Source: Somniosus microcephalus
Taxonomy: Eukaryota
DNA: 64,000 nucleotides
Assembly (NCBI GenBank): GCA_052327205.1
Contig: CM126211.1
Span: 16,678,001-16,742,000 of the forward strand
Direction of reading: 5' to 3'
How positions within the stretch are numbered: position 1 is the first letter of the stretch; every line of letters starts with the position of its first letter. Below are positions 14,446-37,737 of this stretch, piece after piece. Under the pieces are notes generated by a model. That model searched no databases, had not been told where the DNA came from, and worked only from the letters and a program-made list of their open reading frames with translations. The position numbers were made by a program, and so were the translations under genes.

Positions 14446-16430
14446 ATAGAATCATAGAATCATAGAAAGTTACAGCACGGAAGGAGGCCATTTCGGCCCA
14501 TCGTGTCCGCGCCGGCCAACAAAGAGCTATCCAGCCTAATCCCACTTCCCAGCTCTTGGTCCGTAGCCCTGCAGGTTAGAGCATCCCAAGTGCACATCCA
14601 AGTACTTTTTAAATGTGGTTAGGGTTCCTGCCTCTACCACCCTTTCAGGCAGTGAGTTCCAGACCCCCACAACCCTCTGGGTGAAGACATTTCCCCTCAA
14701 ATCCCCTCTAAACCTTCCCCCAATTACTTTAAATCTGTGCCCCCTGGTTTTTGACCCCTCTGCTAAGGGAAATAGGTCCTTTCTATCCACTTTATCTAGG
14801 CCCCTCATAATTTTATACACCTCAATAAGGTCCCCCCTCAGCCTCCTCTGTTCCAAGGAAAACAGACCCAGCCTATCCAGTCTTTCCTCATAGCTAAGAT
14901 TCTCTACTCCCGGCAACATCCTTGTAAATCTCCTCTGTACCCTCTCTAGTGCAATCACATCTTTCCTGTAATGTGGTGACCAGAACTGCACGCAGTACTC
15001 TAGCTGAGGCCTAACTAGTGTTTTATACAGTTGAAGCATAACCCCCCCTGCTCTTGTATTCTATGCCATGGCTAATAAGGGCAAGCATTCTGTATGCCTT
15101 CTTAACCACCTTATCTACCTGGCCTGCTACCTTCAGGGATCTGTGGACATACACTCCAAGGTCCCTTTGTTCCTCTACGCTACTCAGTGTCTTACCATTT
15201 AATGTGTATTCCCTTTCCTTGTTAGCCCTCCCCAAATGCATTATCTCACACTTCTCCGGATTGAATTCCATTAGCCACTGTTCTGCCCACCTGACCAATT
15301 TATTGATATCTTCCTGCAGTCTACAGCTTCCTTCTTCAGTATCAACCACACAGCCGATTTTAGTATCAGCTGCAAACTTCTTAATTATACCCCCTATATT
15401 CAAGTCTAGATCATTGATATATACCACAAAAAGCAAGGGACCTAGTACTGAGCCCTGCGGAACCCCACTGGAAACAGCCTTCCAGTCACAAAAACACCCA
15501 TCGACCATTACCCTCTGCTTCCTGCCTCCGAGCCAGTTTTGAATCCAACTTGACACTTTGCCCTGGATCCCATGGGCTTTTAACTTCGTGACAGTCTGCC
15601 ATGTGGAACCTTATCAAAAGCCTTGCTAAAGTCCATATACACTACATCAAACACACTACCCACATCTACTCTCCTTGTCACCTCCTCAAAAAATTCAATC
15701 TAGTTAGTCAGACACGACCTTCCCTTAGCAAATCCATGCTGACTATCCTTGATTAATCCGTTTCTTTCTAAATGAAGATTTATCCTGTCCTTCAGAATTC
15801 CTTCCAATAATTTTCCCACCACCGAGGTTAGTCTGACTGGCCTGTAATTACTCGGTCTATCCTATTCTCCCTTTTTAAACAAGGGTACCACTTCAGCAGT
15901 CCTCCAGTCCTCCAGCACCACACCTGAAGCCAGACAGGATTGGAAAATGATGGTCAGGGCCTCTGCTATTTCCTCTTTTGCTTCGCTTAACAGCCTGGGA
16001 TACATTTCATCCGGGCCTGGGGATTTATCCACTTTTAAAGCTGCTAAACCCCTTAATACTTCCTCTCTCACTATGTTTATTTCATTTAATATTTCACACT
16101 CCTCCCCCCTGATGGCAATCTCTGCTTCACCCCTCTCCTTTGTGAAAACAGACGCAAAGTATTCATTAAGAACCCTACCGACGTCTCCCGCCTCCACACA
16201 CAGATACCCCCATGATCTCTATTAGGCCCTGCCCATTCTTTAGTTATCCTCTTACTCTTTGGGTTTTCCTTGATTTTACTTGCCAAGAATTTTTCATGCT
16301 CTCTCTTTGCTTTCCTAATATCCTTTTTAATTGCACCCCTGCACTTTCGGTACTCCTCTAAATATTCTGCAGTATTTAGCCCTCGGTATCAGTCATACGC
16401 CTCCCTTTTTTTCTTTATCTTACCCTGTAT
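14446..16430 (-). mobile_element. ~2-kb 5'-truncated CR1 LINE (RT domain, frameshifted)
   Basis: Minus ORFs contain KSPGPDEMYPRLL, SGVPQGSVLGPLLFVVYINDLD, KFAADTK (FADD variant) and LVRPQLEYCVQFWSP; (ATTCTATG)n tail. Confidence 0.95.
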
Positions 16431-25795: not shown

Positions 25796-26006
25796 CATGC
25801 GCGCTACAACAGAAGATCTGGATTTTTATTACTTTTTCAAAAACGTGTTCTCCAGACATCTTTTAATACTACTGAAATTAATTGCAGCCCCCCCTCCCCC
25901 TTTCCCAAGGAAGAAAATGACAATTGTTTTCAAGAAAACTTGCATTTATATAGCACCTTTCACATCCTTGGGACACCCCAAAGTGCTTCGCAGCCAATGA
26001 ATTACC

Positions 26007-26263
26007 TGTTGTGTATGTAATATGTGTGCTACTTTGAACCTATGGACAGGACTGCACTACTTGTAGGGCGTAGTGATACGCAGTACCACTCCTGGCCATA
26101 GGGGTATAAATAGTTCTGTGGGTACTGATCTCCCCTCAGTTCCCGCCTGTGGGCATGAAGTAAAGACCTACGTATAGTCCCTACCTCCAACCAGTAAAGA
26201 CCTGTTTGAGTTATACGTTTAAGTCTTTGTGTTAATTGTTCAATACAATACACATACTTAACA
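26007..26263 (+). repeat. 5' LTR
   Basis: Differs from the 3' LTR by 3 substitutions and 1 indel (manual alignment); TATAAATA at 26105. Confidence 0.96.
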
Positions 26264-26264
26264 C

Positions 26265-26274
26265 TGGCGACGAG
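26265..26274 (+). promoter_or_regulatory. Primer-binding site TGGCGACGAG, complementary to the 3' end of tRNA-Ser(GCU)
   Basis: Lies 1 nt after the 5' LTR; complement of ...CTCGTCGCCA-3' (tRNA assignment from memory). Confidence 0.8.
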
Positions 26275-26937: not shown

Positions 26938-29139
26938 ATGCCTAAACACGGGAATATTAGCACCTTTGATAGTGACCTCGAAGATTGGGCCATATATGTT
27001 GAAAGAGTAAAAAATTATTGTAAGGCCAATAAAATTCGTGACCAAGATAAAGCTCTAACATTATTAAATTTAATGGGTGCGAAGACATACGGGCAATTGA
27101 AACACCTGTTATCACCAGATGAACCGGCGGATAAGACGTTCGATGAGATTGTTACTGTCCTGAAAGATCATCTAAACCCCACGCCGCTGATGCTAGCGGA
27201 ACGATTTAAATTTTATGACAGAAGGCAGCTACAGCATGAAAGCAATGCTGAATATTTGCTGGAATTGCGTAAATTAGCGAAATATTGCCAGTTTCGAACG
27301 GGACTGACAGATGCACTACGAGACAAATTTGTGTGTGGTTTATTTAAACAGGATACACAAAAGCGACTGCTCGAGGAGAATGAGCTGACGCTTGAGAAGG
27401 CGGTCACTATGGCAGCAGCACACGAAGCCGCAGCGAGAGGCACGGCAGTAATGCAGCTACGGTCACCGGAGCTCAGTGCACACAAATTGGGTGTGAGTTC
27501 TGGCAAATGTTATCGTTGTGGAAAGACAACGCATGATCAGAACCAGTGTTGGTTTAAAAACCAAGAATGTAGAACTTGTGGTAGGCTTGGACATATAGCT
27601 AGAGTATGCAGGTCAGGGAAGAAGACCAGCAACAAGAAGTCACCGCAAGGAAAATACGCAAAGGTACACAAGGTGACCGAACAGGAGTCCGATTCAGACG
27701 CTAGCAGTAATGAACTGGCTAGCTTAAGCTGTAATGAACTGGCTAGCTTAAGAGTACTCAACGCTGGTAAGGGTGCAGGCCTCCAGACAATTTGGGTCAC
27801 TCTTCAGATAGAAGGAGTCCAAGTAAAACTGGAATTGGACACTGGATCGGCATTGACGGTCATAAATAAGAAAGATTACGGAAAGTTATTCCAACATATT
27901 CCCCTACAGGATACGGGGATTATATTGAAAACATACACGGGGCAAAGAGTGTACCCCATCGGGAAAATAGAGGTTGCAGTGGTCCACAAGGGCGAAGACA
28001 GTCAAATAATGGACTTATATGTGATATCTGAAGGAGGTTCTCCACTACTAGGACGGGAGTGGATTAGGAAAATGAATATGGACTGGCATTTCCTACAAAC
28101 AATAACGAGTGAGAACTCGGTGAAGATAGTCGGCCCAGACTCTGGAACGGATGATGGTAAGCCCAACTCAGGTGCAAAAGACAAAGTTTCAGCACAGAAT
28201 TCTACTGAGCAACAACAACATAGTTTAACTGTGGATTCTGAGTCTGGCAAGTCTACTGATGTGCCCATTTCTGAGGGACACCGGGCTCGAACTCAACTCC
28301 ATTTCAAACTACAACAGCAATTAGAACAAATGCTTCGCCGTTTTGAGCAAGAGTTGAATGCAACGAAAGAGTTCTTTGATATAGAGTTGGAGAATCTGGA
28401 AAGACAACAGAAGCAGCTGATGGAGAAAATGGAGCAGGAGCACACAAAACGTCTGATGTCAGAGGAGTTAACGGTCAGCCAACTCCTGCATATGCTGAAG
28501 GACAGGACTCTGAAATGGGAAAAACTTGAACACGAACTTCAATATTCAAACGAAAGGGGTTCGGAGCTCTCAAAGGTTATTGGAAGAGCTGAGGTGGCAA
28601 CACAGACTGAGATGACTGCAACAGAGCAGCCCTTGGATGCCAAAAGTACGCTGACTCACGTCAACGTAGAACAACAGACCGCTGAAACAGCTGCTCCGGT
28701 AGAGGGATTGAATAGTCCGATCAATCAATCTCCAAAAGAAGTTGAAGTAGTAAAATCTCAAATGAGGTCATTAGTAAACGACTTGCTGAAAGCCCAGAAA
28801 AAGCTGGATGAAGAGGTACGCATGAAGAAGTCTCTTCAGGAAAGATGTCTGGACTTGGAACAAAAGCTGGGTATGGAGGAAATAGAAGACCCTCTCGCTG
28901 GCCTAGATCAGGACGACACCGAATATTACTATGTCCTGTCCTGCCCAACTTGTAACTTCGACTCCCACCATACAGAAATCATGGAGGAGCACCGAAAGTC
29001 TACGGAACATCGGGAGAAGGTGGCTCTACTACGGAAAAAGGAGGAAGAGAAGGAGGAACTGCGCATGCAGCTGGCAGCTGACAGTGGAGCCCAGAGAGTC
29101 TCCAAGAAGCAGAAAAGGAAAAGTCGAAACAGAAGATGA
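26938..29139 (+). CDS. 733-aa chimeric Gag-protease-STK10-like-OPTN-like-zinc-finger polyprotein
   Basis: Uninterrupted ATG-to-TGA ORF. aa1-165 Gag capsid ([27 protein letters not shown]); two CX2CX4HX4C knuckles aa191-224; protease LDTGS aa300-304 and LLGREW aa370-375; host-like coiled coils follow. Confidence 0.92.
28273..28455 (+). other. STK10: Captured STK10 (LOK)/SLK coiled-coil (PKK-region) segment, aa446-506 of the ORF
   Basis: [57 protein letters not shown] versus remembered human STK10 [57 protein letters not shown]. Confidence 0.88.
28459..28869 (+). other. OPTN: Captured optineurin central coiled-coil segment, aa508-644 of the ORF
   Basis: [13 protein letters not shown]...EKLEHEL...EVATQTE...[43 protein letters not shown] versus remembered human [17 protein letters not shown]...ERLEVAL...EIETQTE...[43 protein letters not shown]. 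Confidence 0.85.
28942..29010 (+). other. Matrin/U1-type C2H2 zinc finger (C-x2-C-x12-H-x5-H), aa669-691 of the ORF
   Basis: [23 protein letters not shown] spacing. Confidence 0.65.
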
Positions 29140-29442
29140 CCCATCTGAACCATTATTACCTCTACCAGATCACACACGTGGTCCCTCCGAACGGAGCCAA
29201 TTCAGTTCGGAAGTTCAAACTGTTAAATCCATGGAAGGACTATTGAATGAGTCACTCCAGCAACGTGAACCGACTACACCACAGAGATTGAATCTGTGAA
29301 CTGTTTTCCGCAGAGACTGAATCTGTGATCTGTTTTGACATGAAGTTATCTATGTATCTATGTTATTCTGTTATGTAAACCTGAAGTTATATATGTATAT
29401 ATGTTATTACGTTATGTTAAATGGGGAGATGACTGTAAAGCT

Positions 29443-29455: not shown

Positions 29456-29711
29456 TGTTGTGTATGTAATATGTGTGCTACTTTGAACCTATGGACAGGA
29501 CTGCACTACTTGTTGGGCATAGTGATACGCAGTACCACTCCTGGCCATAGGGGTATAAATAGTACTGTGGGTACTGATCCCCCTCAGTTCCCGCCTGTGG
29601 GCATGAAGTAAAGACCTACGTATAGTCCCTACCTCCAACCAGTAAAGACCTGTTTGAGTTATACGTTTAAGTCTTTGTGTTAATTGTTCAATACAATACA
29701 CATACTTAACA
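29456..29711 (+). repeat. 3' LTR
   Basis: Direct repeat of 26007-26263, followed by the TSD ttacc. Confidence 0.96.
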
Positions 29712-30653
29712 TTACCTTTGAAGCACAATCATTGTGTTGTGCAGGCAAACGCAGCAGCTGATTTGTGCACAGCAAGGTGCCACGTTCGCCAACCAAGATA
29801 AATAACCAGTTAATCTATTTTAGTAGGGTCGGTTTCAAGAGGGCACACGAGGTCGGGCACTTCCAACTGCCGAGAAAATCTTGCAATAATCATCATTATA
29901 AACAATATTTTATTTCACGGGCAACGTCGAATGGAATTTTCTCAACTGGCTCGCGTTCTATTTTGACAAGCTGAGAATAAACCTTCACAATTGAGAGAGT
30001 GGTCCTGTTAAACAATCATCTAGCGCTTCACTGAATTCAGCACAACTGCAGATATACGAGTGTGTTTAATTCTATGGGCGATGCTGGATTCTTTCCCCAC
30101 TATGCAATTGGTAATTATTATCCAGCGCATGAGTGAAGAGCCTCCAGGTGTCGTGTGCAGATCTGGGACGTGACTGCTGAATAAATACATTTCTTGGATA
30201 CTTTCTTTGTTATTACTAAATAAAATAGCCTTGTATGCTTCTTATATTGCTAATAAAAATAGAAATTAAGGAACGAAAGAAATACTCCTCAGCAGGCAGT
30301 GCACAGCAGATGACCAACTTCAAGTTGTGCAGCGGTTTTATGTGACGCTTGACCTGTGAAAGATTTATATGAATTCTGACCTGTGGAGGGAACGGTTCTT
30401 TGGCAAAAAATAAAGCTAATCATATTAAAATAGCGACAATGCCAATTAGAAAACTGTTTCTCTGAACTATTGACTCCGAGGTGATACAAATGACTGTCAG
30501 ATACAATTTCCCTACTTACAAAAATCAATTATTTCAAGGCTGTTTTCAGAAAAATCCAAACTTACTTGCAGATGCCAAAATCAGTAGCAGGAAAAACTGA
30601 GTCCATTTTCTTGCCTTCCTTCAAATGTGCTTTATGGAAACAAGTTAACACAG

Positions 30654-36233: not shown

Positions 36234-37737
36234 ACATAAGAGCTAAGAAATAGGAGCAGGAGTCGGCCATTCGGCCCCTCGAGCCTGCTCCGCCATTCAA
36301 TAAGATCATGGCTGATCTTCTACCTTATCTCCACTTTCCTGCACTATCCCCATTTCGTCCAGTGGTCATGAAAGGCACTATATAAATGCCAGTCTTTCTT
36401 TCTTTTCTTTATCCCTTGATTCCCTTAATATCCAAAAATCTATCGATCTCTGTCTTGAATATGCTCAACGACTGAGCTTCCACAGCCCTCTGGGGTAGAG
36501 AATTCGAAGATTCACCACCCTCTGAGTGAAGAAATGTCTCCTCATCTCAGTCCTAAATGGCTGACCCCTTACTCTGAGACTATGACCCCTGGTTCTGGAC
36601 TCCCCAGCCAGGGGAAACATCCTCCCTGCATCTACCCTGTCAAGCCCTGTAAGAATTTTGTATGTTTCAATGAGGTCACCTCTCATTCTTCTAAATTCTA
36701 GAGAATATAGGCCTAGTCTACTCAATCTCTCCTCACAGGACAATCCCCCCATCCCAGGAATCAGTCTGGTGAACCTTTGTTGCACTCCCTCTATGGCAAG
36801 TATATCCTTCCTTAGGTAAGGAGACCAAAACTGTGCACAGTACTCCAGGTGTGGTCTCACCAGGGCCCTGTATAACTGTAGTAAGACATCTTTACTCTTA
36901 TACTCAAATCCTCTTGTAATAAAGGCCAACATACCATTTGTTTTCCTAATTGCTTGCTGTACCTGCATGTTAACTTTCAGTGATTCGTGTACAAGGACAC
37001 CCAGACTCCTCTGAACACCAACATTTCCCAATCTCGCACCATTTAAATAATACTGTTTTTCTATTTTTCCTACCAAGTGGATAACTTCAAATTTCTCCAC
37101 GTTATATTCCATTTGCCATGTTCTTGCCCACTCACTTAGCCTGTCTATATCCCCTTGAAGCCTCTTTGCATCCTCCTCACAACTTACATTCCCACCCAGC
37201 TTTGTATCATCAGCAAACTTGGATATATTACATTTGGTCCCCTCATCCAAATCATTGATGTAGATTGTGAATAGCTGAGGCCCAAGCACTGATCCTTGCA
37301 GTACCCCACTAGCTACAGCCTGCCAACCCGAAAATGACCCGTTTATTCCTACTCTCTGTTTTCTGTCCGTGAACTAATTCTCAATCCATGCTAGTATATT
37401 ACCCCCAATCCCATGAGCCCTAATTTTGTTTAATAGCCTCTTGTGTGGCACCTTATCAAATGCCTTCTGAAAATCCAAATACACCACATCCACTGGTTCC
37501 CCCTTATCTATTCTGCTAGTTACAACCTCAAAAAACTCGAACAGATTTGTCAAACATGATTTCCCTTTCATAAATCCGTGTTGACTCTGCCCAATCCTAT
37601 TATTATTTTCTAAGTGCCCTGTTACCACGTCCTTAATAATAGATTCTAGCATTTTCCCTACTACTGATGTCAGGCTAACTGGTCTGCAGTTCCCCGTTTT
37701 CCCTCTCCCTCCTTTCCTAAATAGTGGGGTTACATTT
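36234..37737 (-). mobile_element. ~1.5-kb 5'-truncated CR1 LINE (RT domain)
   Basis: RPVSLTSVVGKMLE, QHGFMKGKSCLTNL, YLDFQKAFDKVPH, LGPQLFTIYINDLD, KFADDTK; a ~55-bp SINE tail is inserted at ~36356-36410. Confidence 0.95.

What the first reader, a model, noticed from the sequence alone, without database searches (positions are those of the whole stretch)
28459..28869. Optineurin central coiled coil captured next to the STK10 piece: possible autophagy/innate-immunity decoy on a Gag polyprotein
Three collinear OPTN signatures occur in order: [10 protein letters not shown].xTQTE and EVE....Q..SL...L..A..KL.E...MKK.LQE.C..LE.K. They start two residues after the STK10 block (junction ...[15 protein letters not shown]...). 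Established: OPTN is a selective-autophagy receptor and TBK1 adaptor. The captured part lies after the TBK1-binding and LIR segments and before the UBAN. Inference: an effector-less OPTN coiled coil released by the element's own protease could associate with host OPTN or its partners and blunt clearance of particles. This functional idea is speculative.
Basis: partly seen in the sequence, partly recalled or inferred. Interest (0 to 1): 0.8.

Follow-up and report, generated by a model that had tools for sequence, protein, structure and literature searches.

The report
Shark retrotransposon carrying captured host RNAs
A jumping gene in a shark swapped its own copying enzymes for pieces of host RNA, first one full turn of a circular STK10 RNA and later optineurin and other genes, and spread to thousands of copies; the optineurin piece is real but looks like replaceable filler rather than an immune decoy.

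Summary
The optineurin capture is real. Window 28447-28873 is four spliced exons of the host optn gene (81-94% DNA identity, introns gone), read in frame after Gag-protease-STK10 in a young LTR retrotransposon without RT or integrase. Its STK10|OPTN joint occurs 4,306 times in the genome. That joint is a secondary deletion: about 1,500 sister copies carry a longer OPTN piece with the LIR intact. The larger result is the vehicle. 1,139 copies hold STK10 alone, with its 12th coding exon joined exactly to its 8th. The cassette enters and leaves STK10 at one site and sits where pol was, which fits one reverse-transcribed turn of a circular RNA. OPTN, a jaz-type zinc finger, a myosin-tail coiled coil and titin-like Ig domains were added in frame in different lineages. 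The family is transcribed. The frame is kept (8 of 8 joints in frame, no stops), but amino-acid constraint on OPTN is weak (omega about 0.77, not significant; Gag 0.14-0.19). The most numerous subfamily lost the LIR, and other rods can replace OPTN. An autophagy decoy is unlikely (about 0.1); in-frame filler replacing Pol is more likely. New variant of LTR-mediated and circRNA-derived retrocopies.

The parts
26002..26006 (+). 5' target-site duplication (TTACC)
   Evidence: same 5 bases at 29712-29716
26007..26263 (+). 5' LTR (TG...CA), 257 nt
   Evidence: 98.4% identical to the 3' LTR: 3 substitutions and 1 indel
26265..26274 (+). primer-binding site, the same 10 bases as in the pol-bearing relative 'A'
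26938..27672 (+). Gag with two CCHC knuckles (from 27508 and 27568)
   Evidence: Pfam zf-CCHC E 0.003, under cut-off; 81-93% DNA identity to relative A in 200-nt windows; omega 0.14-0.19
27796..28089 (+). aspartic protease (LDTGS at 27835)
   Evidence: Pfam gag-asp_proteas, RVP and Asp_protease_2 under cut-off here, over cut-off in sister L031
28107..28277 (+). captured STK10 linker (9th coding exon), with a 69-nt in-frame loss
   Evidence: 88% and 85% to host stk10 exon; joints
28273..28454 (+). captured STK10 PKK coiled-coil start (11th and 12th coding exons, spliced)
   Evidence: Pfam PKK E 2.5e-8; 94% and 91% to host exons
28447..28873 (+). captured optineurin piece (5th to start of 8th coding exon, spliced; shark OPTN ~226-384); no TBK1-binding part, LIR or UBAN
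   Evidence: predicted helix - disordered stretch - helix
28873..28890 (+). remnant of STK10 8th coding exon (MEEIED), downstream of exons 9-12: the permuted order left by the circle
28891..29117 (+). third captured piece: C-x2-C-x12-H-x5-H zinc finger plus basic helix, probably from DNAJC21
   Evidence: sister versions hit Pfam zf-C2H2_jaz (E 3e-10; over cut-off) and Atlas clusters including ZUO1-like_ZHD proteins; host exon not found
29118..29287 (+). STK10 exon 8/9 remnants, mostly behind the stop codon (29137-29139) and untranslated
   Evidence: 83-87% to host exons and to sisters L031 and L157
29443..29455 (+). polypurine tract
   Evidence: sequence
29456..29711 (+). 3' LTR
29712..29716 (+). 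3' target-site duplication (TTACC)

Best explanation
A non-autonomous Gypsy-type LTR retrotransposon whose RT-RNaseH-integrase region was replaced by host RNA through template switching. Step 1 (joint shown, circle inferred): reverse transcriptase copied one turn of a 1,245-nt circular STK10 RNA (coding exons 8-12), entering and leaving at the same site, in frame with Gag-protease. Step 2 (shown): spliced OPTN mRNA (exons 3-8) replaced the stretch around the back-splice joint; other lineages took other cargo. Step 3 (shown by sister structures, order inferred): in-frame deletions removed the LIR, a zinc-finger piece was added, and the cassette recombined onto a different Gag-protease/LTR backbone, giving the 4,306-copy window family. 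Working (inferred): each copy makes its own Gag-protease-cargo polyprotein, co-assembles with a pol-bearing relative and borrows its RT and integrase. The cargo is selected mainly as an open, soluble, largely helical stand-in for Pol: it keeps translation running to near the 3' end and keeps the polyprotein fit for assembly. OPTN's own binding functions are not what is selected.
For: Spliced exons at 96-99% (one exon 86%, with a deletion) in long copy L031 and 81-94% in the window. Microhomologies of about 4-11 nt at the capture joints. Exact exon-12 donor to exon-8 acceptor joint in 3 of 3 fetched loci and 1,139 pattern matches, control 0. The five exons total 1,245 nt with no stop round the circle. 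The host has one copy of each of the two exons in 180 kb. Outer joints match the pol-bearing relative A after the protease and at the integrase end. Window Gag-protease is 81-93% like A, the cassette 74-92% like sister B (tree, 100/100). 8 of 8 joints in the window ORF are in frame; no stop among ~67 branch substitutions (P about 0.04). Cargo is interchangeable. RNA covers the whole ORF in 2 of 2 RNA runs.
Against: No direct test of translation, assembly or helper use. Raw pairwise omega against the host is below 1 (0.43, P 0.0009 for all captured parts), so some sequence-level selection is possible. The zinc-finger loop changed 11 of 12 residues with all four ligands kept, which pure filler does not predict. 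28 of 30 long copies keep the SFVEI motif, though they are still close to the host. Microhomology between similar codons itself favours in-frame joints, and loci found by protein search are biased towards open frames. The circle itself was not seen in RNA.
Confidence: 0.6

Rival explanations
1. The captured coiled coils do a specific job for the element: they dimerise the polyprotein behind the protease, replacing the RT-RT contacts that help protease activation.
For: Independent captures favour long helices (STK10 PKK, OPTN, myosin-tail type). The window deletion fuses PKK and OPTN into one predicted helix of about 110 residues. In HIV-1, a leucine zipper behind the protease raises Gag cleavage (PMC3291649, abstract).
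Against: Titin-like Ig domains were also taken. Constraint on the helices is no stronger than on the disordered part (omega 0.43, 0.50, 0.50). In the HIV work the zipper lowered particle yield.
Confidence: 0.17
2. One reading: the OPTN piece, with or without the LIR, binds host OPTN, LC3/GABARAP or partners and blunts autophagic or innate clearance of particles.
For: OPTN oligomerises and uses its LIR to bind LC3/GABARAP (PMC5962687, passages and section 4). About 1,500 copies carry the LIR region; OPTN-bearing classes outnumber back-splice-joint copies about 5 to 1; the family is transcribed.
Against: The largest subfamily lost the LIR. UBAN and the TBK1-binding N-terminus were not in any of the 30 best long copies. 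OPTN constraint is not significant (P 0.23). Lineages without OPTN also spread.
Confidence: 0.1
3. The cargo is a pure passenger; open frames reflect youth and microhomology bias, not selection.
For: Spectrum-corrected omega about 0.77, P 0.16. Young LTR retrocopies are mostly in frame anyway (14 of 17 in Drosophila; PMC5131818 passage). In the window family the last STK10 piece did drop out of frame.
Against: The window cassette is 6-19% diverged from the host and went through 8 rearrangements without a frameshift or stop.
Confidence: 0.13
4. Alternative source of the scrambled STK10 joint: trans-splicing between two STK10 pre-mRNAs or a tandem exon duplication, not a circle. This is independent of the function question.
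For: A linear RNA with an exon 12-to-8 joint would give the same DNA. No inverted repeats were found between today's flanking introns at E < 1e-8.
Against: No duplication in the host locus. In the 12 loci compared with the host gene or a shark STK10 (window, B, L031, L055, L157-L159 by DNA; the rest by reading of translations) STK10 sequence came only from exons 8-12. Entry and exit overlap at one 14-nt site.
Confidence: 0.12

Closest known systems
LTR-mediated retrocopies (Tan et al. 2016, PMC5131818; passages read), including maize Bs1 as cited there
   Same: Partial spliced mRNA between discontinuous LTR-element parts, microsimilarity at joints, several parent genes, sense transcription, further rounds as a non-autonomous element.
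   Different: The passages describe single or few insertions per retrocopy. Here there are thousands, with a conserved Gag-protease fused in frame, serial cargo exchange and a backbone switch.
circRNA-derived pseudogenes (Dong et al. 2016, PMC4897178; main text read; supplements not seen)
   Same: Non-colinear exon joint, only circle-resident exons, LTR context.
   Different: There, 33 high-confidence mouse circRFWD2 copies and a mechanism called 'mysterious'. Here 1,139 copies, both template-switch points visible against the parent pol, one complete turn, fused in frame to Gag-protease and used as a platform for later captures.
Mag-type Gypsy (Metaviridae) LTR retrotransposons (clade name recalled, not tested against references)
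   Same: LTRs, 5-bp TSD, PBS, PPT, two CCHC knuckles, one gag-pol frame in relative A.
   Different: RT, RNase H and integrase are replaced by host sequence.
Oncogene-transducing defective retroviruses (recalled)
   Same: Gag-cargo fusion replacing pol, helper dependence, capture of spliced mRNA.
   Different: No env was seen; catalytic and effector domains (kinase, UBAN, TBK1-binding part) are absent; no host phenotype is known.

Membership tests
Gypsy-type LTR retrotransposon (autonomous) | Paired LTRs TG..CA, TSD, PBS, PPT | tested here: met
Gypsy-type LTR retrotransposon (autonomous) | Gag with CCHC knuckles and aspartic protease | tested here: met
   Pfam under cut-off in the window, protease over cut-off in L031; 80% protein identity to pol-bearing A
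Gypsy-type LTR retrotransposon (autonomous) | RT, RNase H, integrase | tested here: not met
   no such Pfam hit in the ORF; present in relative A by reading of its translation. Filed as a non-autonomous derivative.
Mag clade | RT phylogeny with reference elements | not tested
   no reference set at hand; label recalled
LTR-mediated retrocopy | Introns lost | tested here: met
   3 OPTN introns in the window, 5 in L031; STK10 introns too
LTR-mediated retrocopy | Flanked by discontinuous parts of one LTR element, with microsimilarity at joints | tested here: met
circRNA-derived retrocopy | Exact non-colinear exon joint | tested here: met
   in sisters L157-L159, read again in L160/L161, 1,139 matches; lost in the window copy, where only the permuted order remains
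circRNA-derived retrocopy | Only circle-resident exons; no tandem duplication in the host | tested here: met
   a sample of loci, not the whole family
circRNA-derived retrocopy | The circular RNA exists in the host | not testable with these tools
   needs RNase R data; element transcripts carry the same joint
OPTN-type autophagy receptor or decoy | LIR | tested here: not met
   absent in the window; SFVEI in 28 of 30 long copies
OPTN-type autophagy receptor or decoy | UBAN / zinc finger and TBK1-binding N-terminus | tested here: not met
   the OPTN 3' part matched only the host gene (4 matches of 19 candidates); long copies start in the third coding exon
OPTN-type autophagy receptor or decoy | Binding to host OPTN or ATG8 proteins | not tested
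   no binding data obtained

The most novel reading that the evidence does not exclude
A host circular RNA became the protein-coding core of a large, expressed retrotransposon family that keeps sampling the host transcriptome, and selection among lineages picks working host domains (the OPTN LIR and coiled coils, a zinc finger now diverging fast with its ligands kept) that help the element assemble or evade host control: a natural domain-shuffling experiment with thousands of recorded outcomes.
Probability: 0.22. Interest if true: 0.9.

Novelty: new variant of a known kind. Interest (0 to 1): 0.72.

Why it matters
It gives a readable mechanism for how a circular RNA gets into a genome, which Dong et al. 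left open: both switch points and the parent pol are visible, in over a thousand copies. It dates a back-splice event in a shark lineage. It shows LTR-mediated capture building new multi-gene ORFs at a scale (about 6,950 copies if the three counted classes do not overlap) that allows tests of what selection keeps. In practice, thousands of expressed OPTN and STK10 exon copies will confound annotation, expression estimates and circRNA calls in this genome.

Tried and rejected
Pfam gave no hit for the OPTN piece and PDB none for the captured region; the identification rests. The representative-protein search found no chimeric protein among 16 hits (10 of them read). DNAJC21 origin of the tail: a homolog search with sister B's tail found nothing among 122 candidates. 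The ZUO1 family search found only DNAJC2-like exons (name recalled). A dnajc21-like gene at C1:2.675 Mb showed four 5' exons, but no zinc-finger exon in 105 kb that holds two assembly gaps, and the region further on was not seen. The jaz family search was filled by long-ORF matches, the 2 fetched being element copies. So DNAJC21 stays probable, not shown. The dN/dS rows for captured parts were dropped because two exon ends were set wrongly; one search replaces them; the gag and protease rows stand. One search failed on an offset and was redone. In the tree row L159 was a wrong extraction (a neighbouring element) and is ignored; element C was left out. Complex prediction of two copies of the PKK-OPTN fragment: no answer. 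No listed holder of the stretch was on record as RNA; RNA evidence comes only. No inverted repeats between the introns flanking the circle. Literature searches (listings only) showed no report of this family; PMC8633312 (passages) was irrelevant. Repbase and Dfam could not be searched, so the family may be catalogued there. Earlier scan findings: none. The intronless STK10 3' copy at C3:354.66 Mb covers residues ~753-977 only and is not the donor.

Full report
1. Observation. The finding lies in a 733-aa ORF (26938-29139) between two LTRs (26007-26263 and 29456-29711; 3 substitutions and 1 indel), with a TTACC target-site duplication, PBS and PPT. The ORF reads Gag with two CCHC knuckles, aspartic protease, an STK10 piece (Pfam PKK, E 2.5e-8), the OPTN piece and a zinc-finger tail; there is no RT or integrase. 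The stretch 28459-28869 hits 22 proteins among 441 candidates, all with optineurin's Pfam set, best E 7e-43, residues 226-384 of a shark OPTN. The host gene is on C17. The window DNA matches four consecutive exons at 81-94% with introns absent. The capture is real and came from spliced RNA. The host is a shark, inferred from the closest OPTN and STK10 proteins.

2. The family. A DNA search gave 40 scored matches at 95-100% from 63 candidates; 23 of the 30 fetched keep the whole ORF (these are the copies closest to the window). A 30-base pattern across the STK10|OPTN joint matches 4,306 places, control 0. Searching with OPTN gave 66 scored intronless matches. The 30 fetched are Gag-protease-STK10-OPTN-STK10 elements with OPTN residues ~131-420, or ~131-384 in a shortened variant. 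In L031 six host exons are joined at 96-99%, one at 86% because of a 21-nt loss. 28 of 30 keep the LIR core SFVEI, and a LIR pattern matches 1,506 places including the host gene. So the window joint is a later deletion between two similar spots, and the LIR-less form is the more numerous.

3. The vehicle is a captured circle. In long copies the STK10 pieces are permuted: residues 385-478 and 616-687 precede OPTN, 307-388 follow it. I predicted that older copies would show a back-splice joint. A search with the end of the host's 12th coding exon gave 40 of 40 scored matches at 100% from 958 candidates. In 3 of 3 fetched loci that exon end is joined exactly to the first base of the 8th coding exon, and the joint matches 1,139 places, control 0. 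Exons 8-12 total 1,245 nt, in frame, without a stop round the circle. Only the two bases AG are shared at this joint, against about 4-11 nt at the template-switch joints. The cassette enters and leaves STK10 at one overlapping 14-nt site, and its outer joints match a pol-bearing relative, A, just after the protease and at the end of integrase. The host has no second copy of these exons in 180 kb. One reverse-transcribed turn of a circular RNA replacing pol explains all of this; trans-splicing is the remaining rival. A 138-residue part of the circle was already missing in all copies examined. OPTN later replaced about 55 + 52 nt around the back-splice joint.

4. Serial capture. The window tail derives from a jaz-type zinc-finger piece (Pfam E 3e-10 in L161; Atlas neighbours include ZUO1-like_ZHD clusters). 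DNAJC21 is the likely parent (name recalled; host exon not found). Other lineages carry a myosin-tail coiled coil (L160, L161) or titin-like Ig domains (L158). The window family is a recombinant: its Gag-protease is 81-93% like A and 67-79% like sisters B and L031, while its cassette is 74-92% like B (tree).

5. Expression. 18 of 24 listed runs hold some of the stretch, 11 at least half of its words, under four coded organism labels. In two RNA runs 14,228 and 14,048 reads were laid and all 30 bins were covered. In X23 first mates lie mostly on the minus strand (1,030 against 61 over 28653-28767), which in most stranded libraries means sense RNA; X24 is mixed. Reads at 92% likeness can come from any copy or sister; tissue is unknown; translation is not shown.

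6. Selection. Gag is strongly constrained (omega 0.14-0.19; protease 0.17-0.47). Against the host, the window's captured parts give omega 0.43 (P 0.0009) and OPTN alone 0.52 (P 0.043) by simple counting, but this includes host-branch change and ignores mutation bias. Counting only changes on the window branch (host and L031 agree) gives 43.5 N / 23.5 S. Against 70.5% N expected from the spectrum of 118 private mutations in 34 young copies, omega is about 0.77 (P 0.16); OPTN alone 22.5 / 12.5 (P 0.23); no stop among about 67 changes, P about 0.04. The test is small, and RT errors may have another spectrum. All 8 joints in the window ORF are in frame; 1 in 6,500 if each were one in three, though microhomology inflates this. 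Against pure filler: the zinc-finger loop diverged sharply with ligands kept. The fold model shows a helix of about 110 residues across the STK10|OPTN joint, a disordered stretch and two more helices (single sequence, pTM 0.29).

7. How it most likely works. Shown: structure, RNA origin, copy numbers, transcription, open frame. Inferred: the element supplies its own Gag-protease, borrows RT and integrase from relatives like A, and keeps host-derived sequence as an in-frame stand-in for Pol (0.6). Rivals: a dimerising role behind the protease (0.17; precedent in HIV-1, PMC3291649 abstract), passenger (0.13), OPTN-specific decoy (0.1). The decoy fails mainly because the LIR was lost in the largest subfamily, UBAN and the TBK1-binding part were not captured, OPTN is dispensable and exchangeable, and constraint is weak.

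8. Comparison and novelty. It meets the features of LTR-mediated retrocopies (PMC5131818, passages) and, through its sisters, of circRNA-derived pseudogenes (PMC4897178, main text; supplements not seen). It is not an autonomous Gypsy element and not an autophagy receptor. Different from those reports: scale (about 6,950 copies in three classes), a visible full-turn capture with both switch points, in-frame fusion to a conserved Gag-protease, and repeated cargo exchange. Seven literature searches showed no report of this family; repeat libraries and subscription journals were not searchable. Verdict: observation confirmed, interpretation partly supported, new variant of a known kind, interest 0.72.

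Noticed in passing
L160 (G000:C3:13264200-13268200), L161 (G000:C6:64213800-64217800): Sister lineage without OPTN: a 220-aa myosin-tail-type coiled coil (Pfam E 2e-16; resembles CGNL1, recalled) inserted in frame in the STK10 PKK piece, back-splice joint kept, plus the zinc-finger piece. The shared zinc finger in OPTN and non-OPTN lineages implies recombination between cargo variants.
   Followed up: partly
L158 (G000:C1:337870980-337874041): Copy with titin-like Ig domains (best PDB hit titin, E 3e-35) in frame after the back-splice joint, and another unidentified C2H2-like piece after the protease (weak hit to Zn-C2H2_12, E 0.015).
   Followed up: partly
window 28942-29010: The zinc finger keeps all four ligands and spacing while 11 of 12 loop residues differ from sisters; 18 of 36 nt differ in the loop against 15-16 of 108 outside, nearly all non-synonymous. 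Positive selection or a patch from another RNA.
   Followed up: partly
L031:1722-2600 against host optn: The long OPTN piece starts 8 nt inside the third coding exon and ends within about 5 nt of the end of the eighth. The closeness to exon edges is unexplained; an exon 3-8 circle or fragment as donor is possible.
   Followed up: no
window 28465, RNA runs X23 and X24: 118 and 128 reads join the OPTN piece in frame to a different, unidentified upstream sequence: probably a further cargo variant.
   Followed up: no
G000:C17 ~85884790 and ~85885360 (L075): The assembled host optn has two single-base insertions in A-runs (end of 5th, start of 6th coding exon) that break its frame. 6 of 21 scored long element copies also break at or next to an A-run, so assembly error is likely, but a broken host allele is not excluded.
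   Followed up: no
G000:C3:354658271-354658948 (L078): Intronless copy of the STK10 3' end, 98-100% identical to host exons: a separate young retrocopy.
   Followed up: partly
L094-L111 (around host stk10): At least four pol-bearing relatives and one chimeric copy lie within 180 kb; all pol-bearing ones seen are interrupted. L043, L047, L048 and L159 lie in or beside such relatives.
   Followed up: partly
window 15026-15610 and 36468-37373 (-), and dispersed repeats: RT fragments (Pfam RVT_1) and many dispersed repeat families, probably decayed LINEs and SINEs; 5 other ORFs scanned had no Pfam hit.
   Followed up: no
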